NCBI GenBank assembly: GCA_964644305.1
Contig: CAZXVA010000002.1
Span: forward strand, 4,964-68,963
DNA from: an uncultured Oscillospiraceae bacterium
GTDB lineage: Bacteria; Bacillota; Clostridia; Oscillospirales; Oscillospiraceae
Direction of reading: 5' to 3'
DNA length: 64,000 bases
The number at the start of each line of letters is the position of its first letter. Positions within the stretch are counted from its first letter, which is position 1. This document shows, piece after piece, positions 899 to 40,848 of this stretch. The position numbers and the translations under genes were made by a program. The notes under the pieces were generated by a model, which was not told the origin of the DNA, made no database searches, and saw only the letters and a list, made by a program, of their open reading frames with translations.

Positions 899-931
899 TA
901 AAAAACTTCCCGACGATTTCTCGCCGGGAAG
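899..931 (-). terminator. Rho-independent terminator (minus strand)
   Basis: Minus strand reads CTTCCCG-gcgagaaatcgt-CGGGAAG followed by TTTTTTAT. Arms are at 925-931 and 906-912, with the T-run at 900-905. Confidence 0.75.
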
Positions 932-1165
932 GCCCCCGCAAATGCCGTGCCGACCCGATTATAACCTGCACGAACGGGCAGGTGGGTCGCCTAAGTTCTG
1001 TTTCGCTGCTTCCAACGTCCGGCGTGAGCCGGGAGGCCTGCAATCCGCAGATTCAAATCGGCATCCCTTATAAGAGATGTGGGTTTAACGGGTCGTAAAG
1101 CTTCAACAAAGCTACACGCACACAGCAGGAGTTTTCTTATCTGGTAAGCTATATGTTCCTTTGAC
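932..1165 (-). ncRNA. Candidate structured RNA (independent sRNA, long structured 3' UTR of the DUF1292 gene, or leader of the MBOAT gene); family unassigned
   Basis: About 235 nt with no credible ORF between the stop at 1171 and the terminator at 899-931. Nested helices pair by eye: 1121-1127 with 943-949, 984-989 with 951-956, hairpins 965-969/978-982 and 1019-1023/1028-1032. Confidence 0.3.
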
Positions 1166-7410: not shown

Positions 7411-7486
<76 letters not shown>

Positions 7487-32700: not shown

Positions 32701-35700
32701 GGACGCCGTGGCGCGGAGATTGAGCGCACCGCCGGATTTGACGCTGCGGCTGTGAATCTTGGCGAGGTTATTATTCTCGACATAGCCGACGGCGAGCGCG
32801 CCCATGAACTGGCTCTTGCCCGGATTTTCCTCTTTTTCATCTGAGGAGGTCTTGCTCGCGTCGTTGAAGAGGGTTTTGTTTTTGTCAACTGCCTTGTCGA
32901 CGCCGGTTTTCTCGCTGTTCTCCGTGCCCAAGAGGGCGGGGATGAAGTCGAGCATGTTGAACGGGGTGATCTGCGCGGCGGCGTCATCGGCAGAGTTAAA
33001 GGGAATTGCAAGCGAGACGGTGCTTGCGCGCGCGTCGGCAAAGGAGACAACGTCAACATCATCCGCGGCTTCAACGCCCAGGGCGGTGTCGATGACGGCC
33101 TGAGTGTCATTGAAGATGAAGTTGCCCGCGACGTAAACGCCGGAGCGCGGGTTAACGTTCCACACGTCGGTGACTTTGCCCGTGGCGTAGCTGGTGGATT
33201 CCACGATGCTTGAGGCCAAGAGCTTCATGCCGCCGCCGGAGTTGACAGAGGCGTTGCCGGTGATTTTGGTAAGGGTTTCAAACTTGACGACGGTGAGGGA
33301 GATGGAGAAGTGGGTCGAGCCGCCGAAAGTGTAGGCAGTGAGGTCATTGCGGGAGTTGGCCGAGAGGAGCACGCCCGCGTTTGCGCGTTTGCTTGCATCA
33401 TCGGGGAAATAGCCGGACTTGACAATCGCGTTGCCGCCGACGACGACCTTGCTGTGGCCGGCGGAGACGGCCATGGTGATGGGAATGGCGACGGCCAAAA
33501 GCTCATTGCTGGCATCAATGGTGATGTCAACATCCGCCACGGCGCGGACATAGCCCCCGGCGTATATGTTGCCTTCTATTATAATATCCGCATTGCCGAA
33601 TTTGAGCGTGACGGGGTTGAACTCTTTGTCTATCAAAGAAGAGATATAATCCGCGCCGGGGATGAAGCCCTTGTTGAGCACGAGGAGCGCGGCAAGGTCA
33701 ACCGCCTGCGTGGTGACGATTTCGCTGCCCGCGAATATATTGATGGACACATCGCGCCCGGCGTTGTAAAGGCCGAGTTCGATTGTGACATCATTGTCGG
33801 AATTGAGGTCATCTTCATAGACCACCTCGTTCACGGCCTTGCCGTCATACGGCGTGTCCTCGCCGTAAACGGAGAGGATGAGGTTTTTGGCCGTGATGTC
33901 GACGGTTTCGTCATTGCCGTCGCCGAGGACGTCAATATTGTCCCCGATGATGACGACGTTCACCCCGTCGGCAAGCAGACGCTTGATGCCGATTCTGCCG
34001 GAGAACGGGTTGCTCATGTCCTCTTGCAGGACGATGTTGGTGAAAAGCAGCCCGCTCGCGGGGACGATGAAGTTACGGTCGGCAAGCGAGAAGTCGACCT
34101 GTTTATATTTTATGGGGTCTTTGCGTTCGCCCTTGTCGTCATACACTTCGCGCTCGGCGTCCGTGGTGGGGACGACGTAGTTGGTGAAGGATTGGAGAAT
34201 GCTGCCATTGGCAAGCGTGTCAACGTTGACGGTGGGCTTGTTCAAAAGCGCGTCCGTCAGGGCGTCGATGCGGTCAATGATGATCTTGAGGAGCTTGGTG
34301 AAGTCGATGCTGAGCGCGTCCGTCTCATCGGGGAGAATGCTGACCTGCGCAAGCGCCTGAATGTCGATTTCGGTCTGTTCGGAGTTTACTTTGATTCTCT
34401 CGGCTTCATCCTTATCTTTGTTGAGCTTGCCGGTCAGGTGGAGGCGGTCAAAGCCGTCATCGCCGTGCGCGTTGACATTGGCCTCGCCCCAGACGGAGAA
34501 AGCCGTGGTGGTGTCGACGGTGATGACATCGTCGCCCTTGCCGCCGGTGACGTCAACCGTCGTCGCGGGGAGGTCTGTTTTTGCATTAAGCTGTTCCTGC
34601 ACATAGTCAATGAACGCTTTGAGGAGATTGTTGGCAAAGCTGAGCTTGCGGCCGCCGGTGACGGTAATGGTGTCGTCGCCGTCGCCGCCGTCGATGTCGA
34701 TGTCCGCCGCGCTCAGATCAATGTCGAAGCCGAAGTTGTACGCAATGGGGAGCTCGGCCGAACCGGCCTCGGCAGTGCCGGAGGTGCTGACCTCGGTGGC
34801 CAAGAGAATGTCACTGCTGTCGATGAGCTTTATGTTCGCCCTGTCCTCGCCGCCGCCGAGCTTGATGTCGACGTCAACGGTGTGATTTTGGGTGACAGAG
34901 GACTCAATGCTCTTTGCGAGGTCTGTTTTGAGCGATTCGACAATTTTAGTGAGCGCGGTTTTGACGTCTCCCTCTTCAAGTTTGCTCAAATCATCGAAAG
35001 ATGCCAGTGCGCTGAATTGGTCGGAGATATCTTTAAGCGTTTCGACAGGATTGCCTTCACCGTTGATGCCAACCTTTGCGCCGGCGTTTGGCCGCTTTGT
35101 GATTTGCACGGTCACGGTGTCGTTGCCGCCGCCGCTGTCGACGGTCACGGCGGAATAGACGTCGGAAATGTCAAGGTCAATGACATCGTCCTGGCTCGTG
35201 CCGTAATAGGTGACGGTTTCGGCGTTGGCGATGGTGACCTTGTCGCGCGTGGAAAGATATATGCCCGCGAGCAGGGTGTTCAGGCCGTCAATGTCGATGT
35301 TGATTGCGCCCTCAACCTTGACGTTGCCCGCGGAGTTTGCGTTGAAGGTGATTTGTCCGTTTTCATCCTCGGCAATCGCGTCGTGCGCCACAATGCGAAT
35401 GGTCATTTCGGGCGCGGGCGTAGTGGATTCGGGATTGTTGCGAACGCCGAGAAGCTCCAAAAGAATATCGGCGAGGACAGAGTCAGTCGACTTGCTGCTC
35501 AAATCGACGCCGCCTTGATACACGCCGTCTTCAACGACGATGGTCGCGACGCGGTCTTTGCCGGCATTTTCTTCCGTGCTGCTCTCAATGTCCTTGAGAT
35601 AGGTGAGCGCATGCTCCAAGGCCGTGGTGATGGCGTTTTTCTCGGAGGTGTTGGTGTATTTGACTTCCTTGCTTATCTCGCGGATATACGCGCTGCCCGC

Positions 35701-36372
35701 GGGAATGGCGTAAGCGTCCGGTTCTTCGCCGGTGTCGGCGGCGACGGGCGGCTCTGTGCCGGGGTCACCGGCGGCGAAAGTCGTGGGAGTCATGGCAAGG
35801 GAAGTCACCATGGGAGTGTCAGATGCTGGCGTGGGTGCGCCGGTGGTGCCCGGCGTCGTGGACGTGGGTGTGCCGGTGGTGTCCGGCGTCGTGGACGTGG
35901 GTGCGCCGGTGGTGTCCGGCGTTGCGGGCGTGGGTGCGCCCGGCGTTGAGGACGTGGTCGTGCCCGGCGTTGCGGGCGCGGTCGTGCCCGGCGTTGCGGG
36001 CGTGGTCGTGTCCGGCGTTGCGGGCGCGGTCGTGCCCGGCGTTGCGGGCGTGGTCGTGTCCGGCGTTGAGGGCGTGGTCGTGTCCGGCGTTGCGGGCGTG
36101 GTCGTGCCCGGCGTTGCGGGCGTTGTGGGCGTATCCGTGCCCGGTGTTGTGGGTGGAGTGGGCGTGCTTGCGCCGACGCCGTCGGCAGGCGGCGTGACGT
36201 CTCCTCCTATTGAAGTTTGTTCTGGCTCTTGCACATTGTCGGTGGCATACGCCGCGCTGTGCAAGGGCGAGCAGAATGCAATCAGCATGCAAAAAACAGC
36301 AAAGAACACCACGGTGCAGATGAGCATCTGCATCGACTTGTTCGTTGCTGCTTTGTTACGCATGGTCATCAT
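8701..36372 (-). CDS. Giant secreted/surface fibre protein, 9,223 aa (about 0.9 MDa by rough estimate): signal peptide, Pro/Thr linker, very long beta-solenoid-like repeats with embedded helical, coiled-coil and non-repeat modules
   Basis: Single stop-free frame of 27,672 nt. GGGAG RBS 8 nt before the ATG. N-terminus MMTMRNKAATNKSMQM plus hydrophobic LICTVVFFAVFCMLIAFCSPL plus HSAAYA. A terminator follows the stop. Composition and periodic (V/A)GVGA(S/A)(V/F)A...N.T.A.(I/V)G repeats are typical of filamentous adhesin-like beta-helices. Confidence 0.9.
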   Translation of the reverse strand: MMTMRNKAATNKSMQMLICTVVFFAVFCMLIAFCSPLHSAAYATDNVQEPEQTSIGGDVTPPADGVGASTPTPPTTPGTDTPTTPATPGTTTPATPDTTTPSTPDTTTPATPGTTAPATPDTTTPATPGTTAPATPGTTTSSTPGAPTPATPDTTGAPTSTTPDTTGTPTSTTPGTTGAPTPASDTPMVTSLAMTPTTFAAGDPGTEPPVAADTGEEPDAYAIPAGSAYIREISKEVKYTNTSEKNAITTALEHALTYLKDIESSTEENAGKDRVATIVVEDGVYQGGVDLSSKSTDSVLADILLELLGVRNNPESTTPAPEMTIRIVAHDAIAEDENGQITFNANSAGNVKVEGAINIDIDGLNTLLAGIYLSTRDKVTIANAETVTYYGTSQDDVIDLDISDVYSAVTVDSGGGNDTVTVQITKRPNAGAKVGINGEGNPVETLKDISDQFSALASFDDLSKLEEGDVKTALTKIVESLKTDLAKSIESSVTQNHTVDVDIKLGGGEDRANIKLIDSSDILLATEVSTSGTAEAGSAELPIAYNFGFDIDLSAADIDIDGGDGDDTITVTGGRKLSFANNLLKAFIDYVQEQLNAKTDLPATTVDVTGGKGDDVITVDTTTAFSVWGEANVNAHGDDGFDRLHLTGKLNKDKDEAERIKVNSEQTEIDIQALAQVSILPDETDALSIDFTKLLKIIIDRIDALTDALLNKPTVNVDTLANGSILQSFTNYVVPTTDAEREVYDDKGERKDPIKYKQVDFSLADRNFIVPASGLLFTNIVLQEDMSNPFSGRIGIKRLLADGVNVVIIGDNIDVLGDGNDETVDITAKNLILSVYGEDTPYDGKAVNEVVYEDDLNSDNDVTIELGLYNAGRDVSINIFAGSEIVTTQAVDLAALLVLNKGFIPGADYISSLIDKEFNPVTLKFGNADIIIEGNIYAGGYVRAVADVDITIDASNELLAVAIPITMAVSAGHSKVVVGGNAIVKSGYFPDDASKRANAGVLLSANSRNDLTAYTFGGSTHFSISLTVVKFETLTKITGNASVNSGGGMKLLASSIVESTSYATGKVTDVWNVNPRSGVYVAGNFIFNDTQAVIDTALGVEAADDVDVVSFADARASTVSLAIPFNSADDAAAQITPFNMLDFIPALLGTENSEKTGVDKAVDKNKTLFNDASKTSSDEKEENPGKSQFMGALAVGYVENNNLAKIHSRSVKSGGALNLRATASSVSRLTSDGSLYRTPSLLGDDNFIQGTYLTKEQVPKNAIGAAIGIEVLIHGNEAIISHTDINDNKAVSPNIEAKSLNVVANTLAADSEAVVKSGHSPNDPEVKIAITGAVAVHVVNVNNCATLGLATYNINGGDVAVIATGRGNYITVGDASGKRTTAKIPVGPVTVPLAPAFKMTADSVGVGAGVAVEVINIDCFATVVDYASFGKAQQDANDNKYNTAENPVVYLGSLTVLADYCADFYLEAAAGAMGGKSVVPVVAVTVSSVNTKATVGNYNYDKKNYVTHLAGDLAVTANTFADRVMNVNAKAVGAKAGAGMAVGLSVITDSAEALLARSVKAKSVNVASESISRIEQTIYAGATGATPSPVTPTGASTGASLDELTKDTGEIGKERDNVTGGEHDTTNSLNPNSEAEKTAKKNEGVLAKLAGQLGSLAGKSTTLNSLKVSTMTQKRPAMQTTEGSVQVAASIATNVHFNSAKATIADGLTVECSGPVAVTALEDTDAVIRADSTASNSSTGVGAAVAVNYVEYENIAYVGARKIIGSDLTIRADVLEAENLRAVEEILTELVTYLAGVNNIQILVDALLKANGVDTFTDLINKEEYKKIYDEYIAGLNAKKDAGNLTKEEQDYLNLTPEQQKAKQEELLKDLVVKLVVESLQQKKTDTSTALMGGLAEAMVDEFIAMLSDPANILKFIIGDSSVENDFNTLVDQKAMQLEVTVDLLREAVAVSLATKYGTDSELDNVGNRISTIAISGAGGANVGVAGSLALNIVKATAKAILADLADPAEGDTVSLTGDAQLYAHSANKVYATATSSAANNGLPVKNKTGKAAPGTSVGVGASFAMTNLDATAEAITGAKRTISAASLAQQAIVHNDVDTASVAGQDPIGRQQSFQDYESITPVIGQPLPAGMTTTKDIAADASVALNIISNTVNALVKEGCVLTLTGGNLIETARVTGQDEETKQDIYEQANLYLRARQRGQTNASAGGFATGNKAAVGAAVAVNLATSDVNAKLLGSGTSTGKVIVDAETANEDEAQALALTYGAMLERVFEKIRMVVGILNATDDPPCGSLSNTVVSKLNGFGTVNKITGKVGSAPLMSTVLKSLGIDLPMADTSVSNSTAAGATGGMSAQTVTKPNGSTINIAAATAVNVTAHKANALIDGDFTAEAFDAQAINNANHRAYATGATVNIPQNPTIKGTSVSLGVAVSVNENEANSTVGGSLKSPSGKNTDGAVKVGATLTQNLDGKYPGLLAAQSLGGTVDASRGGLGLAGAVSVVKTNGKATALIKDGTASAAENPIPASEIIAKDIVVSASEKSKLSVRAGGLTAGRKAVGVGASFALIYDNNQTQARVGDYAKITGQNLTVSAKKLPVTDADYVFPFDQKNLFTAGNGSKDDDPNNKGLFHINITDGDDPNGKKNDNSIEVNLSTDKLLALVDMLNYLASVNYYIESIAGAINADLMQSGAAVAGSVSMLFAQNILSAEIGDNARIDLTPAEGDAFDADGGKATVEAANETHTRLISGALAITGSNGVGANVTGFDDRGSVNASVGKNTTLKAQNDIAITADAKNDVLAVAAAAAASAGASSQVAVGGTVNVIVTGNTVNASAGDASRLESVAGGVKVTADNVSDLMHIAASGSGTASGQVSVGGTFTTIVSKNKTNASIGDNASAIAAKDVAKDVVITANSAEQLINGLASVSAAPAATNAATVAGTLGVIVTESKTTAAVGKSAVVDAAKGNITVLSANDVRQIAVQTGVAASGGQVAVGASVNVGVFEQTVSTTVGESAKLTAGKNVTLAATGKNQTVVVSAEGTVSTAASVATVGGIVPTVVSNSKIYTTVGKDAAVENAADTTGKGATVEAGDTIAVYTDLDLGLYSAAGAATVAVAGQVGVGAVVSTMVVNNQVFTIVADNTVLKAKAAKPAGATDLGVKLPNRETKRRGVVVSADANTRLVLASVCAGVAPSAVAGVSGVVNTLVLSNKVKAIVGAGATVEAGDFAATGTDGDTGEGEEAASGDPNKDIEFTVESNDETEIYNLAGAVSVSSTVGVGATVVSMVYNKEMDAAVGASGTIKSRGSVNATANSEDYLYLIAVSFSGALGNVGVGVGANALVFENKLNSSLGGAIDADGAVNVTANADSSLYNLAAAGTASGTVAVTPVAVVTWFKGETNAALAEGADVTAKGDVTVKADSHEFVTSDVLGVAASGTVAVSGAVDLIISDQKTTALARKNAVISAKNINLAALDNSEIIGVVGVVAATGTAAVGVTAMVTVLHNTVTSGFADSDANLKKSTLASGAVNVAADALRDIRGYAANTTASGAAAVGTTIMVTVAGGKLTQDTRDALISSGTRLSQEDYDKLSEDEQKQYAKSQSGGFDSDGFIRLFGTLPAADDIRGLDAKLAADGTKQSDIKLGDENGEFDAQTGYVSDEFNNTDIVDADKDGNVALRGEDRKIDDDSASADIKAAAGIRAPEYEAKNAVSATIGKNVKITSTGDITVLANETLNSDMISATVAGSAYAGVAVNIAVNVLYSNVIASVDTGASLITDGNVTVKATSGTKSIAQGDDKTEKDNNAFISGLIADSENTGKLNLSSRTIRSVSTAVGGAIAGVSVPMAVVILKNNTLASLNGSVSGYTTGVKSVSVKAETVYDQILAVTGAASGGGVAVGTPITVIYSEGKLSASIGGNANIGGFAAQTADVTPAVDVATVATVNVVAASAAAAVGGVGVNAGIAVAVNRMHIDTFIGDAVVINDANLKKISALNTSNLTAEAWVVSVSGAASEAIGIAGAVTVVAPTVHTFIGLSPDSTDTSASSGAITAANADILVRNAVTSRSTPIAINVAAGGSFSTAGTLLLSFNDTVSVAAILRKPVTAHNIEINSASDATAVADFVGATAASMAVGASIGYAHLGARSEALMDTTGVAVNAVDVYVHADKRDPNPVSTDVGVIAPPPFDSEVVANIAKAEAKSITAVAGSVAANINLAIADNCSANIAKIFGSGSENGLTATGNVKIIALAKSSANAEVYGLNVAGKSVAASVAVAVLRSAQNAELVGGKAEAASFTVYSKLFAPTGDDNTATAALHIGTGAINSYYANIAVAYGRSKSTAGIAADALNVTGNGTVDIRTNDVANTLAKVVDLGLAYNEAGLMTAFAYSQGAFNAYLTLAADDTVNANAVTVKTYYTANAVTQLTPTAGIPASVGNIGIGVNVGVADAASTSTAKISGGTITATALTLSADGTATASATLTTPTVDLTAVSVGANVLVALVSAENYARLNGSTVNDASVSVTANLNDGEDDKAVAKLAGVSKSANVSFSAVKAEGSAAVARNDSVNEASITNSKINAKTKAVTVASKANSIAEAGVQTPTADIGYKAVGVTVIVALANGDFAAFIDNATNHDIDAASIDVTNTYIAKADAKTMQATGGVNLEADSVEANVATAIVNTKAEAGVRGGTLRAHNGSVTVKAGGTATADAGVTSNTVTLSGTKIAANILVAQLNAKQFAYIENADVTVDGESTAEAERTISVISELNKDKTDGATAKLGGVTNTMVDCTLLGANANSATATAAATSSAYVSASALTCTGAVEIKSDATSYATADIALPTEDVGLVSLGVNVLYANANGNYSAYLNGASSRVTAKELKITNTYTAKSSAKTTASKNGASVKAAEVNANVASATTGIAAHTGVNVANVTDRQDKTGTDDSSDADPNLTILAKLIISADGTATADAAVAKQPVNITIQSAVVNTLIATVSATQTARLNRATVEGESVTVESKFNDGDNEGASAVLGNLTDNTADGAITISENSAKVNTLTATMSGASSATVNGAKITATGAVTVKNTAKSYAKADTAGDTTKNNNDVYIGLVNLGAVTALARADGAFTASVENSTVTANTLEVNSAFTATAHSAVDQPKYGFTAYGVEANTASAKTGAVNKAFVSDSNLTIKDAFVNTAYDGKYNKYDSIRIYADGTATAFATILSPIVYVSVGNALLSTVLAEVAGENHAYISGGSVTAPKKTRVCAWFNDGDKQGAVAEIGAAYNAVSGATVTVNTVKANMTAQNHAHVSGTSFSPYNNQTGDLEILAKGNSYAKTGYNSGRFSLNGANLGLVEATSTATGDFDAYLDTTGANIDVANISVKVQYQSTADAKSTQPDGGVGINLVNANQNQANAIADTTSDAYINGSGGTVKAKTITVTVTSSGSSANADVDGKKVTIEGITLGRNYAKSQLNLTQKAYITSTADIDVSGIVTVEAKLENGKSTSEVGSNGGTNVSLINDSKQYADAYASLTNHAYITGAKLTSVGNMTVQALTTGTNITAKAEAVDTAVSVAALGAVHTHARLTKLDTQAYVGAGADIVTNYILIKSEATGTQLTSTPQVPNTAVSGVNVSEIHALADVLDSNTKAGLASGAKLRSLSNADIIADSATTLVSKTDKSNIKGISFLTIGRYRFEMIVDDSNNGHNAEVYLDGTLFANGDLNATATGNVNANSDLSSTTIGAVTSGENVITINVKKSSAKVNLGANADIEATGDVTLTALNNAKLTGKINTTSVGLSESSTAKIDIDWTRTQEISIGDNARLVSRYGNLSLLSGDSTKPTVSADLDMGGGGVIVSGKGPKADINLNSAITVKVGKGATVTALFGALALKTVDATAATADAYRNMGGLAGSNRSQANVTAWVASNILISDTTAGDANQAYLNGKTTEIISDIVQNLNAYATSITTAAGSSTDAYANIYAMDNEQFIRVDNAFVGGIDSLTIKIHTSSMDNNSSASATVQGATGSATAISNVYINNTIDNHPAIAEIYLSDKSHIAGQKINITALAPNVFSNRLVESAATASAKTATKWIVKIFTFGLADDGSEEANANATLAATGKVTLSGKVHLGGGAAGSFVEIDETGKLYYSGLSDEFKTDASVATIDASSIYLNPLYNYDRGFLTVDAFVGDSTVTNSLKNQKDYKDALKVSVSGGITIFDNSFLPNVVITNRSDKALHINQITTNNDPQPRPSLDIGGIKVNGYDHETPRLTVISDNGGDVIFDAEKDGTSVDQDVAEGIVTIEMNGGALTTAQGTAIWANRLTVTGAGTIGVSAGNRFNANITELAEVVYPAPFPAIAERETFVSLAADGNIYANLKHVLIGNKNANGVETMPNNPTLNLGDIVSENGEVDVKLDSPGKVVEEYRPIVDKDVHTPGKPDNYTEIDGVTSDKTISVTDNDGNTINYVISADGTIKNSSGDTYLNLADYCIHTDADSSYFLLPNQLVIRAIKDADGTLRFQSVSGGIDGVSYDFGDVRFELTSNGEISKITYMDGDTLSKEIDFTGSSVTINIGAAGGTIYLKRDSNATSWTLPDGTHIYLSGAFIDNTGDTTIEVEPKLFDVANNLYLLEEISTDRTDYHVVQLEPDGKTFKQGYIYKVTGYDLGEAKNLKDDDKQSFDDAKTAVDEALGSVDYDKCYNLEAIKDAVDTAVKGAISNEWKADIKYTIAANSSSVTISLTLKSTGTATDSETKTKSLTALFTNTSEASSELNSTDLTGTASLGGFGVKFTVKDDLKRSGKVTISDNKMTVKYGIYEFSTEYDETFKAYKVKDIGKTNAYYKARFNELKDLYFTYNGGNIGYFTFTQSSSGEVNGSTLNGGYKKTDGGLLFVDAVNAVNGIYYIQNKAVAFTASGELRLINIEYARDESGNVIDDISKATLMYGPEMTQAKDENGDNMYSLMQFEYKDPDNGDTITKFFSDGKDAAYQSILKELIAADEKLGEYNVNSYEMSLKAVKAENGKYVYDTTSLPIYAVSGAEQKSETTTEGTKYYYYVDSNGTLFTSKYSYEQLEKDSAAMASLLSAHGNFTPYYYYPRGTVTITPAGADGIEVTYMPYSENINISFAIGQDGAYGIVDRFTRVVLSDDDATGMPKGTLLYLDSDGNIVAAYTPEGIVRVYEQSTKLGTIATDGTTTTVTTTTEGIYTEFDSTHFHLTPNAKMLLHRAATGVYMLPQTLDMTSLLALNTDVPVSYLFKSDFFGESAGNVLVKLTRGDAETLDDAKLGELGFAYPTTAMEDFFTGAFISAITDSNGDVVMYVIERKDGTDTTDPTTIILLPDGVWYASDNTAGILKQNSARVIQELDTPTFVNMEETIQGEDVTIRFSGSSLNDNDDIVSDEKTNVIADNLLIIAENSGDIFEEEDPIVVKPFSKDKNTTNIKIVSNNNGAYGGTAYAKTLVDADITLHDTQLASGGSLKLDMHKGDATLDNVTVDASASLALSIANGGSITMNTVTADGTITATTQSGDLALSDTAVSGTANVTSDGDGAISLDKLAVSGTANVTNKGEGDADLTDVTVNGNGVLTVSTDSGNATLDDITVSTGGTLNFTTGAGNISLGNNAQQGSTTVAVNGDMTVTSGVGAIDLNKVTVGQGGHLIVDAGGKNADSVTDKNSPVTVDNLTVNGELDITTKRGDLLMHDAESKHTLGEDYDDENSTFNIDGDIGAPDLYYKIGYADGLDKPSLTLNITKVNNSFITQFTDIPTTLDGLPTIGHLEGDPANTEHDEAISGLAGENKTIKVTVPQQTGAELAAQLVNSGKLDDNELLALIGGKLTGADVKSALGISQSSAAATLEKLTDAEFAVLWSATAADQIVPALEPKLTDAEDIKAALSAAGVDTADLTPAELASRYDRLYAAKRQAHYLALADAILASLDDATARLTGDKVSAILPLAAGDAGITELLAAAIEATRVKTDADDTPVQATDETGDKLYLDANGALTTAPTGADGAANTPVYELEVIMSDETELFPAYWKSLSDEQKADLLALAWTESKGRYPAPVDETKPPRALILNIGESTGETYVLNVGDITVEQETGTFTAGELVSTHGDVAITAPVIEGVADKADITDAYVLNAYKVKFVGENNGAYGTAANVYAGKHTYTATAGGVGATTRLLTEQRTWKLSTIANIDNENTPPAEYNKTNNGSWSISRDADGKIKLSFDFDFTAVRDIDLASGTELTVTAKDDINIAELTGDQNVANAASENGSVTLAAPNGSQTVQTVSAKQDITLTASGDMTVTNLTAGNDATLTSGGKMDVTELQVGNDATLTADGDMTVTTLSAAHDATLTSGGKMDVTKLKADNDATLTSGGDLTATALEVGNDAALTADGDIILANLAAANSAALTAGRNVLDGREQGNANPNIKTKSAIITAKTGAIGASADKRIDVEIEDALTTDSALDTNLVARGDLTLIADTQTGALNVDGNGNLTIANTDKYNGGDLRLGAVSASGDVTVSAAGGFTLCDRLGRDAQVKGDNLTLSAANGSIGTAARPLRVDTNPGGVLNASAVNGTVNIVEVSDNMTVGAISATGSNSAVTLETVNGDIAESAKAQDDMLRKAVEAAQEAAKAQAKADALQDQFNVLENYVAALDKARDDIASSESAKVQAEADLNAAKAAEADAASGLAARRAEFAALENSAAAPGDLAQKRAEVAAAEAALDAARRDIADKRQALNSAQSDLASALASARYDTFNKVPGLDSASDAASALDALAAEKAAKAAELAKLEPGLNAAKADAAARRAEADALASAAAPSGITSDGDITLQLNRADGKANVGTRDNALGVTPGGKLTVSGGVGTALDSVFLEAGGDLVLNPIRANNRVDISAKGYITGANSVDRIIVAPTAGINSLSNVGASADNPLKISVDTVSASGVNVWLDNDKSLALDGVTAADEVGITADGDLTGDGDPTTDDIIGGNVDINATGNIGASDDPLDIEAGTISATGENITIKSDGDMTVDTITGKDVTISSGGNIADTGSHPAVSADNLDISAAGAIGTEDNPFNVHVPGKLVIATGFGHNFLLNSFFAEPATVVAIPAGIRVTGFISADAVLKVTREMLHADCPVCGYLAAVHPDLLIAQYKLELTGKWWGQLLVEIPVDAKYEGKVITLAYCVGGKLRVMHLTVENGYVSFYTDALYAYTLLDGVYEVATTPDGRQILVDSDANPIKTTATPAEAADSANTPASVEITDAPKADPNATANPDYPTRTLTARV
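10090..10700 (-). other. About 200-aa Ala/Glu/Lys/Asp-rich predicted coiled-coil segment inside the giant protein
   Basis: Translation AKAQDDMLRKAVEAAQEAAKAQAKADALQDQFNVLENYVAALDKARDD...AAKADAAARRAEADALASAA, with no Gly/Pro-rich coils and a heptad-like pattern. Confidence 0.7.
11357..11700 (-). repeat. Six tandem 57-bp (19-aa) repeats, FHA-like beta-helix coils
   Basis: GTGAG(G/C/A)G starts at 11357, 11414, 11471, 11528, 11585 and 11642, an exact 57-nt spacing. They encode QVGNDATLTADGDMTVTTL / SAAHDATLTSGGKMDVTKL and similar units. Confidence 0.9.
19400..23700 (-). repeat. Diverged super-repeats of about 230-250 aa within the giant protein
   Basis: The motif A(D/G)GTATA recurs near nt 23020, 22320, 21560 and 20820, with a degenerate copy near 20130 (spacing 690-760 nt). 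Each is followed by similar strings such as ...P..D.......G(A/V)NVL.A......A.(L/I).... Confidence 0.7.
35826..36170 (-). repeat. In-frame tandem repeats encoding a Pro/Thr-rich mucin-like linker
   Basis: Eight exactly phased 24-bp units (CGGCGTTG starts at 35941, 35965, 35989, 36013, 36037, 36061, 36085, 36109) encode TPATPGTT/TPATPDTT. They are flanked by 30-33-bp variants. Confidence 0.9.
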
Positions 36373-36449
36373 CGCTCACTCCCTTCTCGGATTAACCGGG
36401 TTAAAGACTGAAGATTATGCCTATATTCGTATGTATTTATCTGTAGTAA

Positions 36450-37757
36450 TTACGCCTTGGTTGTGGCTTTTCCGGCTTCATTATATGCGTCGATTTGGGA
36501 AATGATATCCTGCGCGGCCTCGATAAGCTCGGCATCCGAGCCGCTTTCGAGCGTCATTTTCATGTCCTGCGCGGCCTTGTCATAGTCCGCGAGGCGGACA
36601 TGGCACACGCCGCGATTATAATAGCCGAATTGAGGGAGATAGCCCTCCTCAATGGTTTTTGTGAAGTCTTCAATCGCCTCGTCATAGCGCTCAAGCGCCA
36701 TGAGGGACACGCCGCGATAATAAGCGTTGCCGGTCATGGCGGCGTTTTGCGCCTGCGCCGCGTCGAGGTATTCAACCGCCTCGTCATAGCGCTCAAGCAG
36801 CATGAGCGAGGCGCCCATGCGCTGATAATAAAGCTCCGGCGTGTTCAGCGCCGCGCCCAGCTCCGCCAGCTTTTCGCCGTATTCCACCGTTTGGCGGTAA
36901 TCCTCGCGCTCAAAGCAGCAGAGCATGATTTGCTCGATACACGCCGCCTCGTCATACCCGCTCTCCATCGCGCTTTCAAAGCCGGATTCGGCCTCGTCGA
37001 TTTGGCCGAGCTGCATCATGCATGCCGCGCGGAGAAAGACCGCGACGGGGTAATACGGCGCGTCGGCGGCGGTGTCGGCGATGTAGCGGTCAAAGTCGGC
37101 CACGGCGGAGGCATAATCCCCCGCGAGGAAGCGGCAGCGCAGGGCGTTGAGATAATGCGAGTCGTCGCTGTCGTCTTTGTCATAAAGGCGCTGATAGTCG
37201 CGCGCGGCGGCGTCATACTCCCCTGCCGCCTCGCGAAGCTGGGCAAGGGCGAGGGCGACCTCCATGTCATCGGGGCAGAGCGCGCAGTATTGCTCAAGGT
37301 CGGGCAGGGCCGAGGCGGCGTCGCCGCGCTCAATGGCAATCTGCGCGCGGAGCAGCAGCGCGTCGGTGGACTCAGCATCAAGCGCGAGCGCCTTGTCGAG
37401 ATACGCCACCGCGTCCCCCTTCTTGCCGAGGAGCACGCACACCGACGCGGTTTTGAGGTTGAGCCGCGCGGCCTGCTCATCGTCGCCCAGCTCGTCGGCG
37501 AGGGTCAACGCCTCTTTGAGGCAGACAAGCGCGTCCTCGTAGCTTTCCCCGGAAATGGAGACATCGGCAAGCTGTTCATAGCTGTTCATGGCGTCGAGCG
37601 TGAGGGAGGTCGTGGGCGCGGGGTCTTGCCGCGCCGTCACGACGGCGGAGGTGACAGCGGGCAGAACAAGAGAGAAAAGAATCGCGGCAACGAGCACAAG
37701 CGCCACTATTTTCAGCGGCAATATCCAGCCCTTTGTCTCTCTCCTTTCTTCGTCCAT
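36450..37757 (-). CDS. Membrane-anchored TPR-repeat protein
   Basis: Preferred start is ATG 37757 (GGGAGG 8 nt upstream); the track ORF extends to 37829. MDEERRETKGW plus TM ILPLKIVALVLVAAILFSLVLPAV, then about 390 aa of repeated ...Y..A...(L/Y)..A(L/I)......(A/P) TPR-like helices. The stop lies 77 nt from the giant-gene start. Confidence 0.85.
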   Translation of the reverse strand: MDEERRETKGWILPLKIVALVLVAAILFSLVLPAVTSAVVTARQDPAPTTSLTLDAMNSYEQLADVSISGESYEDALVCLKEALTLADELGDDEQAARLNLKTASVCVLLGKKGDAVAYLDKALALDAESTDALLLRAQIAIERGDAASALPDLEQYCALCPDDMEVALALAQLREAAGEYDAAARDYQRLYDKDDSDDSHYLNALRCRFLAGDYASAVADFDRYIADTAADAPYYPVAVFLRAACMMQLGQIDEAESGFESAMESGYDEAACIEQIMLCCFEREDYRQTVEYGEKLAELGAALNTPELYYQRMGASLMLLERYDEAVEYLDAAQAQNAAMTGNAYYRGVSLMALERYDEAIEDFTKTIEEGYLPQFGYYNRGVCHVRLADYDKAAQDMKMTLESGSDAELIEAAQDIISQIDAYNEAGKATTKA

Positions 37758-37876
37758 TCGCGTTTCCTCCCGCCGATTATTCCAATGTGAAGCCGCAAGT
37801 GGGTGCACTTCACGAATATACCTATACATCTGTCATTATACTCGAAATAAAGATTTTTGCAGTACCCATTTTCAAG

Positions 37877-37910
37877 AAAAATCAGCTATCCCCGCCGCAG
37901 TGCGGCGGGG
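37877..37910 (-). terminator. Strong hairpin after the regulator gene (terminator or attenuator)
   Basis: CCCCGCCGC (37890-37898), loop agt, GCGGCGGGG (37902-37910). On the minus strand it is followed by ATAGCTGATTTTTC, so the U-run is displaced by 8 nt. Confidence 0.5.
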
Positions 37911-37928
37911 ACGGACATTAGCGGTTTC

Positions 37929-39131
37929 TTAGCGGCCGACAAAGGCTTTCAGATCTTTTCGGCCGGAGATGTCGAGCTTTTGGTATATCACGGAGATGTA
38001 TTTTTTGACGGTGTGCACGGACAGGCCGAGGTGCGAGGCGATCTCCATGTTCGTCCAGCCGCGGACAGCCAGCGCGGCGATGATGCGCTCGGTCGTGCCG
38101 AGGGTTTCGGGCGCGTCGTCGGCGCTGAGCGGCACGGCGTGCAGCTTTTTGCGCCCGGCGTTGAACGCGTCCGCCACGGCGATCACGGCGCGGTAATCCT
38201 CCGGATAGCTTTTTTTCAGGCAGGATTCAATCAGACCCTGCAAGGCCGAATGGTGCTCGCCGAGGATGAAAATCAGCCCATCGGGGCGGGCGAGCGCCCA
38301 CGCGGCCATGAAATGCGACTGCGCCTCCGCCGTGCGCTTGAGTTCCATGAGCGTCATGGATATCAGCAGCTCCAGGCAGATGTCCATGATCGTGTAGCGC
38401 CGGGGGGACATGTTCAGCGCGGCCTTGGCCGTGCCCAGCGCCTCCTCATAATCGCCGCGCAGGAAGAGGATGAACGCGCAGATGTAATATCCCCACAGCT
38501 TCAGCCCCTCCGGGAGATGGCGGATGTACTGCTCCGGTTCGGGTGTGCTGGGGTGGTCGATGTGCAGCAGCACCGTGGGCGTCAGCAGGGTGAAAATGAC
38601 CGTGGCGCGCAGCTCGTCGGGCAAATCCGCGTCCTTGACGCGGTCGTAATAGGCGCTTATGCGGCGCACGGAGGCATAGGTTTTTTTCACGTCGCCGCAG
38701 GCGACCGAGGCCAACGCCGTCAGCAGCAGCGCCGAGAGACGCAAGCACACGTCATCCGCGTCGAGAAGCTCGGCGCACAGGCGCACGGCCTCGTCCGCGC
38801 GCGCGGTGTAAAGGCACAGCTCCGCCTCGGCGATGCGGCGGGCGGGGTCGGGCAGGGCGGCAATCGCCGCGCGGCATTTGCCCGCCTCGAACACGCCGCT
38901 CAGCAGCGGCATCGCGCAGCCCATGTCGTAAACGCGGTCGCTCTCCCCTGCCCGCGCGCGGCGATTTTGGCGGTTGTCCGCCGGTTTGTCCGCCGTGCAC
39001 GGAATCATCCAAGCGCGCCCGTGTCGGCGCGCGCCGGGGATGCGCTTTTCGGCGAGAAGCCGCTGCACCTGGCGGGGCGTCACGCCCCAGCGCCGCGCGG
39101 CCTCCGCGACTGAAATATAGTCCGTTTTCAC
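37929..39131 (-). CDS. LuxR/GerE-family transcriptional regulator with an additional N-terminal excisionase/MerR-like HTH and a central helical-repeat region
   Basis: N-terminus MKTDYISVAEAARRWGVTPRQVQRLLAEKRIPGARRHGRAWMIP (HTH_17-like). C-terminus ERIIAALAVRGWTNMEIASHLGLSVHTVKKYISVIYQKLDISGRKDL (LuxR-type HTH). GTG start. Confidence 0.85.
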   Translation of the reverse strand: MKTDYISVAEAARRWGVTPRQVQRLLAEKRIPGARRHGRAWMIPCTADKPADNRQNRRARAGESDRVYDMGCAMPLLSGVFEAGKCRAAIAALPDPARRIAEAELCLYTARADEAVRLCAELLDADDVCLRLSALLLTALASVACGDVKKTYASVRRISAYYDRVKDADLPDELRATVIFTLLTPTVLLHIDHPSTPEPEQYIRHLPEGLKLWGYYICAFILFLRGDYEEALGTAKAALNMSPRRYTIMDICLELLISMTLMELKRTAEAQSHFMAAWALARPDGLIFILGEHHSALQGLIESCLKKSYPEDYRAVIAVADAFNAGRKKLHAVPLSADDAPETLGTTERIIAALAVRGWTNMEIASHLGLSVHTVKKYISVIYQKLDISGRKDLKAFVGR

Positions 39132-39194
39132 TCACTCCATTCCACAAAAAAAGTGAAGCATACCCGTCGCCAAAGCGACGCATCGGATAATGTG

Positions 39195-39223
39195 ATTATA
39201 CAACCTTAACGGCGGCTTGACAA
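39195..39223 (-). promoter_or_regulatory. Near-consensus sigma-A promoter for the regulator gene
   Basis: Minus strand reads TTGTCA (39223-39218), exactly 17 nt, then TATAAT (39200-39195), about 60 nt upstream of the GTG at 39131. Confidence 0.7.
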
Positions 39224-39309
39224 GTGGGGTGTATACATATAATCGAACCCCCTGTGGGGTGCACCGGGGGTGACGGCTTTCCACGCGGGAAAAGCCGGTA
39301 TGCTTGGGA

Positions 39310-39561
39310 TTACTTGACGAAGAGCTTGGTTTTGCAGCTGCCGTCGGCAAAGACAAATTCGATTTCGTATTCGCCTGCGTCCAGCTTCTCCAAAACCTCG
39401 GCGGAGATGATGACCTCGCCGTTTTCGCCCGGCTCGAAGTCAACCTCAACGCCGTCGATGAGCACCTTGATGAGGTTATTCGCATCGGCATTGAGAACGT
39501 AGTTCAGCGCGTCGGTATTTGCGGACTTTGTCCGGGTCTGGTCTTTACCCTCGACGACCAT
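39310..39561 (-). CDS. Small 83-aa protein resembling an isolated Ig-like/X2-type beta-sandwich module; possibly a gene remnant
   Basis: ...LIKVLIDGVEVDFEPGENGEVIISAEVLEKLDAGEYEIEFVFADGSCKTKLFVK resembles C-terminal X2-like modules of clostridial surface proteins, from memory only. There is no SD, and no alternative start upstream in frame before a stop at 39652-39654. Confidence 0.4.
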   Translation of the reverse strand: MVVEGKDQTRTKSANTDALNYVLNADANNLIKVLIDGVEVDFEPGENGEVIISAEVLEKLDAGEYEIEFVFADGSCKTKLFVK

Positions 39562-39640
39562 GTACTTGAATACAGGGGCGTCGTAGGTGGTGGCAATGGT
39601 ATTTGCGGGGTGTGCCTTGTCGGGGCGGGCGTCTTGGTCA

Positions 39641-39775
39641 CATAATATTATTCACATATTATTGTTGACGTATTATATTTCACTTCATCTTGTTGTCATA
39701 TTACTGTTGACATATTTTCTTTTACTTCATTTGGTTTTCATATTATAGTTTACTCAATATTGTTTTCATAAAATA
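39641..39775. repeat. AT-rich block with three imperfect ~40-bp direct repeats (candidate operator or iteron-like control region)
   Basis: R1 39651-39688 TTCACATATTATTGTTGACGTATTATATTTCACTTCAT; R2 39689-39730 ...GTCATATTACTGTTGACATATTTTCTTTTACTTCAT; R3 39731-39769 ...TTCATATTATAGTTTACTCAATATTGTTTTCAT. About 75% AT in a GC-rich genome. Confidence 0.65.
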
Positions 39776-39777
39776 AT

Positions 39778-39810
39778 CCACATAACGTTTTAATCGTAAA
39801 CGTTATGTGG
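39778..39810 (-). terminator. Terminator hairpin downstream of tatD
   Basis: Perfect 12-bp inverted repeat CCACATAACGTT...AACGTTATGTGG with a 9-nt loop. The minus strand is followed by the T-rich ATTATTTTAT. Confidence 0.7.
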
Positions 39811-39880
39811 ACTGGATTTGGTTTTGTTATGTTTTTGTTGGAGTTAATCTGGGTTATCGGGGGGTGTTATCTGTTCTCGT

Positions 39881-40642: not shown

Positions 40643-40848
40643 AGTCGGTTTACCTCGCGATGTGATGAGGCTATTATACCCCATTAGGCAGGGGTTTTTC
40701 AACATTTCTTGAGCTTGGGTTGAGAATACCTTGAGACAACCGGAATATAATAAATCAGTTATAATCTATTATTAACAGAGTGTTTTTTAATTTGAACCGG
40801 GCGCTTGATATAATATAAAAAAAGCATGAGACAAAGGAGAGAGCCGGA

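What the first reader, a model, noticed from the sequence alone, without database searches (positions are those of the whole stretch)
36373..39775. Co-directional upstream module: membrane TPR protein, dual-HTH LuxR regulator, orphan beta-sandwich ORF and repeat-rich control region, a candidate dedicated regulation/assembly system for the giant protein
Immediately upstream of the giant gene, on the same strand, I read these elements in order:
- An AT-rich triple direct repeat (39641-39775).
- An 83-aa ORF with no SD.
- A near-consensus promoter, TTGTCA-17-TATAAT (39223-39195).
- A 400-aa regulator that combines an excisionase/MerR-like HTH, a helical-repeat sensor-like middle and a LuxR HTH.
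- A 9-bp GC hairpin (37890-37910).
- A perfect TATAAT (37840-37835), though I see no good -35 for it.
- A 435-aa single-pass membrane TPR protein, whose stop is only 77 nt from the giant-gene start with no terminator between them.

TPR scaffolds often act as chaperones or docking platforms. A membrane-tethered one that is transcriptionally linked to a signal-peptide giant lacking any wall anchor is a plausible retention or assembly partner. This gene combination is not a system I recognise.
Basis: inference. Interest (0 to 1): 0.72.

Follow-up and report, generated by a model that had tools for sequence, protein, structure and literature searches.

The report
Giant surface protein with dedicated TPR partner
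A 9,223-residue secreted protein of an uncultured gut Clostridia bacterium is always encoded next to one particular repeat-protein partner gene, an undescribed conserved pair, and in this lineage a local two-headed regulator probably switches the pair on.

Summary
All listed elements are at the stated coordinates.

**Conserved core.** The core is the TPR gene (36450-37757, minus strand) plus the giant gene (8701-36372, minus strand).
- All 25 TPR homologues found in reference genomes (28-95% identity; Christensenellales and relatives) lie next to a giant-type gene. In 23 it follows 41-100 nt downstream.
- Starting from distant giant homologues (24-36% identity), 21 of 27 loci have a TPR-family gene directly upstream. 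Only two informative loci lack it.

**Regulator.** The HTH_17/helical/LuxR regulator is a separate transcription unit.
- It has its own conserved promoter and a conserved terminator.
- It accompanies the pair only in the closest clade, plus two truncated or expanded relatives. Other lineages carry TetR, ToxR-like or PrsW-protease genes at that position.
- An invariant block, AAATGGGTACTGCAAA, sits at the -35 position of the TPR-giant promoter. GGGT lies at the same offset from a -10 element downstream of regulator homologues in 5 of 8 lineages. This is a candidate operator.

**Not part of the system.** The 83-aa ORF and the AT-rich array occur only in near-identical strains.

**Open.** What the TPR protein does outside the cell (anchor, chaperone or assembly) is inferred, not shown. 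The gene pair appears undescribed.

The parts
8701..36372 (-). Giant gene (9223 aa). The product has an N-terminal Sec-type signal peptide, then a Pro/Thr-rich low-complexity linker (about aa 60-200). A conserved N-terminal region follows, starting ...DAYAIPAGSAYIREI, with five GxGxD motifs at aa 414-817. It has no LPXTG motif and no late hydrophobic anchor.
   Evidence: ORF. No Pfam hit in any part. No NCBIfam hit above cut-off. No PDB relative by sequence. No LPXTG; the only strong hydrophobic segment is aa 12-41. Homologues show 26-60% identity over more than 3000 aa in 16 loci. The family is small: 94 clusters at 50% identity among 1.84 billion representatives, with full-length members of about 7900 aa.
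36373..36449 (-). 77-nt TPR-giant spacer with a conserved Shine-Dalgarno (SD) sequence (GAGAAGGGAGTG) and no terminator. It indicates co-transcription of the two genes.
   Evidence: Sequence. No terminator-like site on this strand. SD block conserved in alignment A5. The equivalent gaps are 41-100 nt in 23 other loci.
36450..37757 (-). TPR partner gene (435 aa). The product has a short basic N-terminal tail and one hydrophobic helix (aa about 17-35), which is either a signal anchor or a cleavable signal peptide. About 10 TPRs then form one continuous superhelix that is predicted to lie outside the cytoplasm.
   Evidence: Pfam TPR families. Alignment of 23 homologues, with 61 invariant columns. 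K+R count is 3.9 on the N-flank against 1.4 on the C-flank. AlphaFold2 pLDDT is 89.6, with 20 helices after the TM helix. The best PDB match is the OGT TPR superhelix 1w3b, E = 5e-11, TM 0.51.
37835..37871 (-). Promoter of the TPR-giant unit. It has an invariant -10 TATAAT (37840-37835) and an invariant block AAATGGGTACTGCAAA (37871-37856, with GGGT at 37867-37864) covering the -35 position. The block is a candidate binding site for the regulator.
   Evidence: Alignment A4 of four loci from three species-level lineages. Exact TGGGTACTGCA occurs only in loci that carry the regulator, always between the regulator and the TPR gene. GGGT lies 27-29 nt upstream of a -10-like hexamer downstream of regulator homologues in 5 of 8 independent lineages; Poisson-binomial P = 8e-7 from shuffles, with a pattern chosen post hoc.
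37874..37912 (-). Intrinsic terminator of the regulator gene: an 11-bp GC stem followed by a T-run.
   Evidence: Scan. Folds of the window, L021, L012 and L022 give -20.5 to -24.5 kcal/mol and z = -3.0 to -4.4. The stem sequences differ while pairing is kept, and a U-tract follows directly in L012 and L022.
37929..39131 (-). Regulator gene (400 aa). The product has an excisionase-type winged HTH (HTH_17, aa 5-46), a disordered linker (aa 55-65), a TPR-like helical domain of 13 helices (aa about 75-330) and a LuxR/GerE HTH (aa 343-394).
   Evidence: Pfam and NCBIfam. AlphaFold2 pLDDT is 88.8. The family is small, with 17 clusters. The alignment is A3. Residues 223-393 align with the C-terminal part of MalT below cut-off. 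L060 carries an AAA_22 + GerE relative of 836 aa.
39165..39223 (-). The regulator's own promoter, TTGTCA-17-TATAAT (39223-39195), and a conserved leader hairpin, GCGTCGC...GCGACG (about 39181-39165).
   Evidence: Scan, 11 of 12 matches. The same arrangement occurs in L012 (TTGCAA-17-TATAAT) and L022 (TTGCCA-17-TATAAT), each with the same leader hairpin.
39310..39561 (-). 83-aa ORF. It is probably the remnant of a 110-aa gene, and it is not part of the conserved system.
   Evidence: GC by codon position (0.58, 0.27, 0.75) looks coding. The only family match is a sub-threshold CBM_X2 hit. A strain in L004 has a 1-nt difference that gives a 110-aa GTG-start ORF. No match in L012-15 or L022, or in any other locus.
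39638..39777 (.). AT-rich array of about ten 14-nt units (minus-strand consensus ATGWnAACAATAAT; equal to 3 x 42 nt). It creates phased -35/-10-like hexamers. It is specific to this species and its function is unknown.
   Evidence: Repeat finding. Promoter-like hits ATGACA-16-TATAAT and ATGAAA-16-TATAAT. Found only in near-identical contigs L001-L004. Absent upstream of the regulator in L012 and L022.
39775..39813 (-). Terminator hairpin of the upstream TatD gene (39881-40705). It marks the upstream boundary of the region.
   Evidence: 16-bp stem followed by a T-rich tail. TatD_DNase, E = 2e-81.

Best explanation
The region holds three separate things.

**1. A conserved two-gene operon: the TPR gene followed by the giant gene.**
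- The giant protein is exported by Sec through an ordinary signal peptide. It has no sortase motif, no C-terminal anchor and no recognisable wall-binding domain.
- The TPR protein places a continuous superhelix of about 10 repeats on the outer face of the membrane.
- Because the two genes are inseparable across deep divergence, the TPR protein most likely acts directly on the giant protein after translocation. It would hold, fold or dock it at the cell surface. This role is inferred.

**2. A lineage-specific regulator gene.**
- It has its own sigma-A-type promoter and its own terminator.
- Its product most likely activates the downstream TPR-giant promoter. That promoter has a perfect -10 but no -35.
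- Activation would occur by binding the invariant GGGTACTGCAAA block that overlaps the -35 position, through the LuxR-type HTH.
- The TPR-like middle domain would be the signal-sensing part.
- The role of the extra N-terminal excisionase-type HTH is unknown.

**3. Unrelated DNA.** The decaying small ORF and the AT-rich 14-nt array are specific to this species and are not part of the system.
For: **Shown: TPR-giant adjacency.**
- All 25 true TPR homologues from the GTDB genome scan lie next to a giant-type gene. In 23 it follows 41-100 nt downstream on the same strand. In L042 and L043 the C-terminus of a giant homologue lies immediately upstream instead.
- Identities co-vary between TPR and giant: 78/60, 53/49, 42/38 and 28/26 percent.
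- In the reverse test from the giant N-terminus, 21 of 27 metagenome loci have a TPR-family gene directly upstream (HMM E = 1e-39 to 1e-191). Four of the remaining six have no usable upstream DNA.
- There is no terminator between the genes, and the Shine-Dalgarno (SD) sequence in the gap is conserved.

**Shown: location of the TPR domain.** The positive-inside rule places it outside the cytoplasm. The model is a superhelix with pLDDT 89.6.

**Shown: the giant protein lacks known anchors**.

**Shown: the regulator is a separate unit.**
- Its promoter and leader are conserved.
- Its terminator is conserved, with compensatory stem changes.

**Supporting regulation of the pair.**
- The regulator, the TPR gene and the giant gene stay together in three species-level lineages although the flanking genes differ: TatD, a 570-aa gene or rplL.
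- Relatives sharing the middle and LuxR domains sit upstream of the pair in L027 and directly upstream of a giant homologue in L060.
- The candidate operator occurs only where the regulator occurs.
- GGGT at a fixed offset from a -10 element recurs downstream of regulator homologues in 5 of 8 lineages.
- Distant regulator homologues (38-40% identity) precede other surface-protein genes. These encode a 3091-aa Flg_new/PT protein, a 749-aa LPKTG protein and a 635-aa Big_2/LPXTG protein.
Against: - No experiment or expression data exist. Co-transcription, activation rather than repression, and any physical TPR-giant contact are all inferred.
- The N-terminal hydrophobic segment of the TPR protein is followed by signal-peptidase-like sites, for example P-A-V-T-S-A|V. 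The protein may therefore be released rather than tethered.
- Two giant homologues (L068, L069) have more than 5 kb of upstream DNA without a TPR gene.
- Most lineages carrying the pair lack this regulator. It is therefore dispensable for the system as such.
- The GGGT pattern was defined after looking at the data. It is absent in L005 and L079, and L006 has only a near miss.
- Structure searches gave only generic TPR matches, so they say nothing specific about function.
Confidence: 0.7

Rival explanations
1. The TPR protein is a regulated tether or release device rather than a chaperone. It holds the giant protein at the membrane, and proteolysis of the TPR protein or of the giant protein's N-terminus frees the giant protein. 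This would be functionally analogous to LapG/LapD control of the LapA adhesin.
For: - In at least six contigs from Lachnospiraceae-type lineages, a PrsW-family intramembrane protease gene lies directly upstream of the TPR-giant pair on the same strand. The loci are L045, L062, L063, L065, L070-72 and L074. Pfam PrsW-protease E values are 3.8e-15 to 3.2e-14.
- PrsW is known to cleave single-pass N-in/C-out membrane proteins (established for RsiW). This is the predicted topology of the TPR protein.
- The variable low-complexity linker follows the giant protein's signal peptide directly. This suggests that the N-terminus stays close to the membrane.
Against: - No PrsW homologue exists in this 64-kb window or in the Christensenellales loci.
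- The TPR protein's cytoplasmic tail is only about 15 residues.
- No cleavage site or interaction has been shown.
Confidence: 0.2
2. The whole upstream block, from the repeat array through the 83-aa ORF, the regulator and the TPR gene, is one dedicated multi-part regulation and assembly system. The repeats would serve as the regulator's binding array.
For: - All elements are co-directional and contiguous.
- Excisionase-type HTH domains are known to bind tandem direct repeats (general knowledge of the Xis family), and the regulator carries such a domain.
Against: - The array and the ORF occur only in near-identical strains. They are missing upstream of the regulator in L012 and L022, where other genes and terminators sit.
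- The ORF is frameshifted between strains and has no Shine-Dalgarno (SD) sequence.
- The candidate operator motif is not present in the array.
- The regulator gene is terminated before the TPR gene.
Confidence: 0.07
3. The regulator's position next to the pair has no functional meaning. It controls other targets, and the conserved block at the TPR promoter is a promoter element for an alternative sigma factor.
For: - Most TPR-giant lineages lack this regulator.
- Two distant regulator homologues are followed by genes that are not surface proteins. These are an OmpR-type response regulator in L079 and a small ORF in L010.
Against: - The motif co-occurs exactly with the regulator.
- GGGT recurs at a fixed offset immediately downstream of regulator genes in unrelated contexts.
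- The three-gene block is kept while its flanks change.
- The block does not resemble the sigma-54, D, E, F, G, H or K consensus sequences (recalled from memory, not scanned with a tool).
Confidence: 0.15

Closest known systems
LapA giant adhesin with LapG protease and LapD (Pseudomonas; type I secretion with surface retention)
   Same: - A giant, acidic, repeat-poor surface protein whose fate depends on dedicated accessory genes encoded next to it.
- GxGxD-type motifs occur in the giant protein.
- Some lineages add a protease gene (PrsW) to the cluster.
   Different: - This is a Gram-positive-type lineage.
- Export uses a Sec signal peptide, not a C-terminal T1SS signal.
- There are no ABC, MFP or TolC genes and no LapG or LapD homologues.
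- The partner is a TPR protein.
- No Pfam RTX repeat is detected.
Two-partner secretion (TpsA exoprotein plus TpsB transporter)
   Same: A very large secreted filament-like protein is encoded in a two-gene operon with one dedicated partner.
   Different: - The partner gene comes first, and its product is an alpha-helical TPR protein, not an Omp85 beta-barrel.
- The giant protein has no TPS (Haemagg_act) domain.
- No outer membrane is expected in these organisms.
TPR assembly factors and chaperones (PilF/PilW pilotins, BamD, PrsT of PEP-CTERM systems, SycD/LcrH)
   Same: An all-TPR protein dedicated to one export or assembly substrate. NCBIfam gives sub-threshold matches to PrsT, PilW and LcrH.
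   Different: - All scores are far below the family cut-offs: 62.9 against 312, 41.6 against 154 and 48.9 against 104.8.
- There is no lipobox.
- The domain is extracytoplasmic in a monoderm-type lineage.
- The client is a Sec-exported giant protein.
LAL/MalT-type LuxR regulators (STAND ATPase, TPR sensor and LuxR HTH)
   Same: - The TPR-like sensor and the C-terminal LuxR HTH align with the C-terminal part of MalT.
- They also align with an AAA_22-containing relative next to a giant homologue in L060.
   Different: - The ATPase module is replaced by an excisionase-type winged HTH, which gives the protein two DNA-binding domains.
- The protein is only 400 aa.

Membership tests
LuxR/GerE family of transcription regulators | C-terminal GerE-type helix-turn-helix (PF00196) | tested here: met
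   PF00196 scores 35.8 bits against a cut-off of 23.5, at residues 343-394. The model shows a four-helix bundle at residues 346-399.
LAL / MalT (large ATP-binding LuxR) regulators | N-terminal STAND/AAA ATPase domain | tested here: not met
   There is no AAA hit. The N-terminus is HTH_17. The relative in L060 does carry AAA_22.
LAL / MalT (large ATP-binding LuxR) regulators | MalT-like TPR sensor region | tested here: inconclusive
   PF17874 scores 21.5 bits against a cut-off of 45. The NCBIfam MalT model scores 23.5 bits against a cut-off of 537. The model shows 13 TPR-like helices, and Foldseek gives only weak generic matches with E above 1e-3.
MerR / excisionase-type HTH proteins | HTH_17 or excisionase winged-helix domain | tested here: met
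   PF12728 scores 42.9 bits against a cut-off of 27. TIGR01764 scores 29.8 bits against a cut-off of 28.8. MerR proper (PF00376) scores 15.1 bits against a cut-off of 28.2, so the protein is not a MerR-family member.
RNPP quorum-sensing receptors (Rap, NprR, PlcR, PrgX, AimR) | XRE-type HTH plus TPR peptide pocket, with an adjacent gene for a secreted signalling peptide | tested here: not met
   The HTH is of a different type. Foldseek matches to Rap, AimR and NprR have E of about 1e-2 and TM 0.33-0.38. The adjacent 83-aa ORF has no signal peptide and is not conserved.
Tetratricopeptide-repeat proteins | Multiple 34-residue helix-turn-helix repeats | tested here: met
   TPR_2 scores 82.8 bits and TPR_1 66.5 bits, both above their cut-offs. 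The model has 20 paired helices and matches the OGT TPR domain with E = 5e-11.
SycD/LcrH type III secretion chaperones; PrsT (PEP-CTERM); PilW | Score above the NCBIfam equivalog cut-off | tested here: not met
   Scores against cut-offs are 48.9 vs 104.8, 62.9 vs 312.2 and 41.6 vs 154.
Sortase-anchored (LPXTG) surface proteins | C-terminal LPXTG motif, hydrophobic segment and charged tail | tested here: not met
   The giant protein has no LPxTG, LPxSG, LPxAG or NPxTG motif. The only strongly hydrophobic window is the signal peptide.
Two-partner secretion exoproteins | N-terminal TPS (Haemagg_act) domain and an Omp85-type partner | tested here: not met
   No Pfam family matches any part of the giant protein. 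The partner is all-alpha TPR.
RTX / type I secreted adhesins | Tandem GGxGxDxUx nonapeptides (HemolysinCabind) and adjacent T1SS genes | tested here: not met
   There is no HemolysinCabind hit. Only five isolated GxGxD motifs occur, at aa 414-817, and the whole-protein count equals the chance expectation. No ABC or MFP genes lie nearby.

The most novel reading that the evidence does not exclude
The TPR protein and the giant protein form a previously unrecognised Sec-dependent system of monoderm Clostridia for displaying giant surface proteins.
- An extracytoplasmic TPR superhelix would serve as the dedicated docking or folding platform in place of sortase, S-layer-homology or choline-binding anchors. 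It might bind the invariant AYAIPAGSAYI motif that follows the giant protein's N-terminal stalk.
- Different lineages would plug in different control modules. These are the HTH_17-LuxR activator with a GGGTAC operator, TetR, a ToxR-like protein, or PrsW-mediated proteolytic release.
Probability: 0.3. Interest if true: 0.75.

Novelty: new variant of a known kind. Interest (0 to 1): 0.58.

Why it matters
- **Unknown biology in common gut bacteria.** Christensenellales and their relatives are common, mostly uncultured members of animal gut and digester communities. How they attach to particles, hosts or other cells is unknown.
- **A large cost with no annotation.** A protein of 8,000-9,000 residues with no recognisable domain takes up about 1% of a small genome. 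It is kept across lineages that have diverged to 25-35% identity.
- **A way in for experiments.** The giant protein is too large to handle. An obligatory partner of about 435 residues is a tractable handle, through the TPR ectodomain and a short conserved N-terminal motif.
- **A possible new retention principle.** The pair may point to a way for Gram-positive-type cells to retain or assemble surface proteins without known anchors.
- **A defined regulatory test.** The regulator is a small family with two DNA-binding domains. Its predicted operator gives a concrete, testable regulatory circuit.

Tried and rejected
- **Pfam, NCBIfam and PDB-sequence searches of the giant protein.** Nothing scored above threshold. 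The only matches were a sub-threshold LktA_tand_53 repeat and a low-complexity MAdCAM hit.
- **Self-BLAST of the giant protein for internal repeats.** None at E below 1e-10.
- **Word-indexed homologue search with the giant protein's C-terminal 449 aa.** It returned a single hit, P0138, so no alignment or structure of that domain could be made.
- **Structure prediction plus Foldseek for the regulator and the TPR protein.** The models are confident, but only generic TPR neighbours were found. This adds nothing specific about function.
- **PrsW in the window.** None found.
- **Operator motif elsewhere in the window.** The only match, allowing up to 3 mismatches, is the site itself. It is not in the array or in the regulator's own promoter.
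- **Similarity of the 83-aa ORF to the giant protein or to any fetched locus.** None.
- **Rfam scan.** It found only a tRNA-Met and a 6S RNA elsewhere in the window. There is no riboswitch or leader in the region.
- **Sigma-54 reading of TGGGTACTGCA.** Rejected by inspection, because the GG-to-GC spacing is 6-7 nt rather than 10.
- **Literature searches.** The terms were 'giant' with Christensenellales, 'giant genes' with tetratricopeptide, and 'giant protein' with Clostridia. They found only the Omnitrophota giant-gene preprint (10.1101/2023.11.21.568195). Its Clostridia examples are RCC1, Listeria-Bacteroides-repeat and dockerin proteins, not this family, and it mentions no TPR partner.
- **RNPP-type peptide signalling with the 83-aa ORF as pro-peptide.** Considered and rejected, because the ORF has no signal peptide and is not conserved.

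Full report
**Layout**

All genes of interest lie on the minus strand. In the direction of transcription the order is as follows.
- A TatD DNase gene (40705-39881) with its terminator hairpin (39813-39775).
- An AT-rich array (39777-39638).
- An 83-aa ORF (39561-39310).
- A promoter, TTGTCA-17-TATAAT (39223-39195).
- A 400-aa regulator gene (39131-37929).
- A GC hairpin (37912-37888).
- A TATAAT hexamer (37840-37835).
- A 435-aa TPR gene (37757-36450).
- A 77-nt spacer.
- A 9223-aa ORF (36372-8701).

The wider window is ordinary chromosome. Upstream lie genes for cardiolipin synthase, a sugar transferase and LeuRS. Beyond the giant gene lie a tRNA-Met, an NlpC/P60-SH3 hydrolase gene and a class A PBP gene, the last two convergent with it. 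The 'triple repeat' is really about ten 14-nt units, equal to 3 x 42 nt.

**The conserved core is the TPR-giant pair**

*Starting from the TPR protein.*
- The TPR protein has many full-length homologues of similar size.
- A scan of one genome per GTDB species with an alignment of 23 of them found 25 true homologues at 28-95% identity. All come from uncultured Christensenellales (Pullichristensenella, Aristaeellaceae), from MAGs labelled Oscillospiraceae, Clostridia or Bacillota, and from one Lachnospiraceae MAG.
- In every locus with enough downstream DNA, a homologue of the giant protein follows on the same strand. It shows 26-60% identity over 1,400 to 3,500 residues and runs off the fetched DNA.
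- The gap between the two genes is 41-100 nt.
- Loci with only a few hundred downstream bases still show, 41-87 nt after the TPR stop, an ORF with the typical giant N-terminus. It has a basic n-region, a signal peptide and an acidic or Ser/Thr/Pro-rich low-complexity linker.
- In two Bacillota MAGs (L042, L043) the order is reversed. The C-terminal end of a giant homologue precedes the TPR gene.
- TPR and giant identities fall together: 78/60, 53/49, 42/38 and 28/26 percent.

*Starting from the giant protein.*
- An alignment of giant N-termini was used to scan metagenome contigs. It returned 27 loci at 24-36% identity.
- Twenty-one have a TPR-family gene immediately upstream on the same strand, with HMM E values of 1e-39 to 1e-191. 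Four of these carry two tandem copies.
- Four loci lack usable upstream DNA. L068 and L069 have more than 5 kb of upstream DNA without a TPR gene.
- The giant family itself is rare. It has 94 clusters at 50% identity among 1.84 billion representatives, and full-length members are about 7,900 residues long.

**What the two proteins look like**

*Giant protein.*
- It has no Pfam match anywhere, no NCBIfam match above cut-off and no PDB relative by sequence.
- It begins with a Sec-type signal peptide, followed by a linker whose length and composition differ between species. The repeats are PT, GS, GEEP or DPV.
- A conserved region follows, opening with a nearly invariant AYAIPAGSAYI motif and carrying five invariant GxGxD motifs.
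- It has no LPXTG motif and no later hydrophobic segment.

*TPR protein.*
- It has a short basic tail and one hydrophobic helix.
- Across 23 homologues the N-flank carries 3.9 Lys+Arg against 1.4 on the C-flank. By the positive-inside rule, the TPR domain therefore lies outside the cytoplasm.
- Small-residue motifs after a conserved proline could be signal-peptidase sites. I cannot distinguish tethered from released.
- The AlphaFold2 model has pLDDT 89.6 and forms one continuous superhelix of about 10 repeats. It most resembles the O-GlcNAc transferase TPR domain (E = 5e-11, TM 0.51), which is a generic match.

**The regulator**

*Architecture and family.*
- It combines an excisionase-type winged HTH, a TPR-like helical domain of 13 helices and a LuxR/GerE HTH.
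- The family is small, with 17 clusters.

*Distribution.*
- The regulator accompanies the TPR-giant pair only in the closest clade (L012-15, L021, L022; 74-95% identity).
- There the flanking genes differ (TatD, a 570-aa gene or rplL) while the three-gene block stays intact.
- A relative without the first HTH precedes the pair in L027.
- An 836-aa relative with an AAA_22 ATPase in place of the first HTH (MalT/LAL type) sits directly upstream of a giant homologue in L060.
- Other lineages have a TetR gene (L016, L024-26, L030), a ToxR-like membrane regulator (L064), a PrsW intramembrane protease (L045, L062, L063, L065, L070-72, L074) or unrelated genes.
- Regulator homologues at 38-40% identity precede other surface-protein genes in three of five cases.

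**Transcription units and a candidate operator**

*The regulator's own unit.*
- The regulator's promoter and a leader hairpin are conserved in three species.
- Downstream of the regulator gene, a hairpin followed by a T-run is conserved in structure. Its stem sequence differs between species. Free energies are -20.5 to -24.5 kcal/mol and z = -3.0 to -4.4. The regulator gene is therefore monocistronic.

*The TPR-giant promoter.*
- Next comes an invariant block, AAATGGGTACTGCAAA, then 14 nt, then an invariant TATAAT.
- The hexamer at the -35 position (ACTGCA) is far from consensus, as expected for an activator-dependent promoter.

*The motif tracks the regulator.*
- Exact TGGGTACTGCA occurs in the fetched loci only where the regulator occurs, and always at this place.
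- Downstream of regulator homologues from independent lineages, GGGT lies 27-29 nt upstream of a -10-like hexamer in 5 of 8 cases. These are the window clade, L027, L060, L010 and L080.
- From 5000 shuffles per sequence, the Poisson-binomial probability of five or more is 8e-7. The pattern was chosen after inspection, so this number overstates the evidence.
- L027 and L060 lack the first HTH. The shared LuxR HTH is therefore the likely reader of this site.

**What does not belong**
- The 83-aa ORF and the 14-nt array are found only in near-identical contigs (L001-L004). They are absent from the next species.
- The ORF has coding-like base composition but no Shine-Dalgarno (SD) sequence.
- A 1-nt difference in another strain restores a 110-aa GTG-start ORF. 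This suggests a decaying remnant.
- The 'beta-sandwich' label rests on a sub-threshold CBM_X2 match.
- The array creates phased promoter-like hexamers. I have no evidence for a function.

**Mechanism and comparison**

*Shown.*
- The TPR and giant genes form an obligatory pair.
- The TPR domain is predicted to lie outside the cytoplasm.
- The giant protein lacks every known anchor.
- The regulator gene is a separate unit.

*Inferred.*
- The TPR protein handles the giant protein after Sec export, as an anchor, holdase or assembly platform.
- The regulator activates the pair through the GGGTAC block.

*Comparison with known systems.* The arrangement works like known 'giant exoprotein plus dedicated partner' systems, such as two-partner secretion, LapA/LapG/LapD, and TPR pilotins or chaperones. 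It fails the defining features of each (see membership table). PrsW genes in other lineages suggest a proteolytic release variant.

*Literature.* I found no paper describing this pair.

*Verdict.* I rate it a new variant of a known kind, of moderate to good interest.

Noticed in passing
L045:8648-9304; L062:98-811; L063:2975-3628; L065:1295-1921; L070:931-1572; L074:2884-3540: In Lachnospiraceae-type lineages, a PrsW-family intramembrane metalloprotease gene sits directly upstream of the TPR-giant pair on the same strand. This forms a recurrent three-gene arrangement. No PrsW gene occurs in the window.
   Followed up: partly
L062:1237-4199; L065:2396-5403; L075:3-2807; L076:99-3199: Some distant loci carry two tandem TPR-family paralogues upstream of the giant gene.
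   Followed up: no
L042:1-3607; L043:3-3033: In two Bacillota MAGs the gene order is reversed. The C-terminal region of a giant homologue (matching window giant aa 8814-9039) ends just before the TPR gene. This C-terminal domain is therefore conserved across very distant members.
   Followed up: partly
window 8701-36372 (giant aa 414-817): Five GxGxD motifs (GGGND, GGGED, GDGDD, GKGDD, GDGND) are invariant across homologues at 25-56% identity. They may be calcium sites. No RTX Pfam match is found.
   Followed up: partly
window 8872-35949, plus strand: Very long antisense ORFs (up to 1934 aa, for example 27040-32844) lie opposite the giant gene. They are by-products of its skewed composition (GC skew of about +0.2 along the whole gene) and not genes.
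   Followed up: no
L014:2156-4307: One strain of the 77%-identity species has a rearranged allele. The gene upstream of the regulator is shortened (373 aa against 570 aa). The regulator is called as 325 aa without the HTH_17 part.
   Followed up: no
L005:11346-11678; L010:8176-8313: Downstream of two distant regulator homologues, just after the promoter, lies a small ORF with weak mutual similarity (32% over 44 aa, E = 0.002). The L005 copy is Cys-rich. It may be a conserved small target gene of this regulator family.
   Followed up: partly
window 929-1134 (-) and 7411-7486 (+): A 6S RNA gene (53.1 bits; gathering score 46.4) and a tRNA-Met gene. The tRNA lies between the 3' end of the giant gene and a convergent NlpC/P60-SH3 gene.
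   Followed up: no
window 39165-39181 (-): A leader hairpin, GCGTCGC...GCGACG, lies between the regulator's promoter and its start codon. It is conserved in L012 and L022 and may be an autoregulatory or stability element.
   Followed up: no
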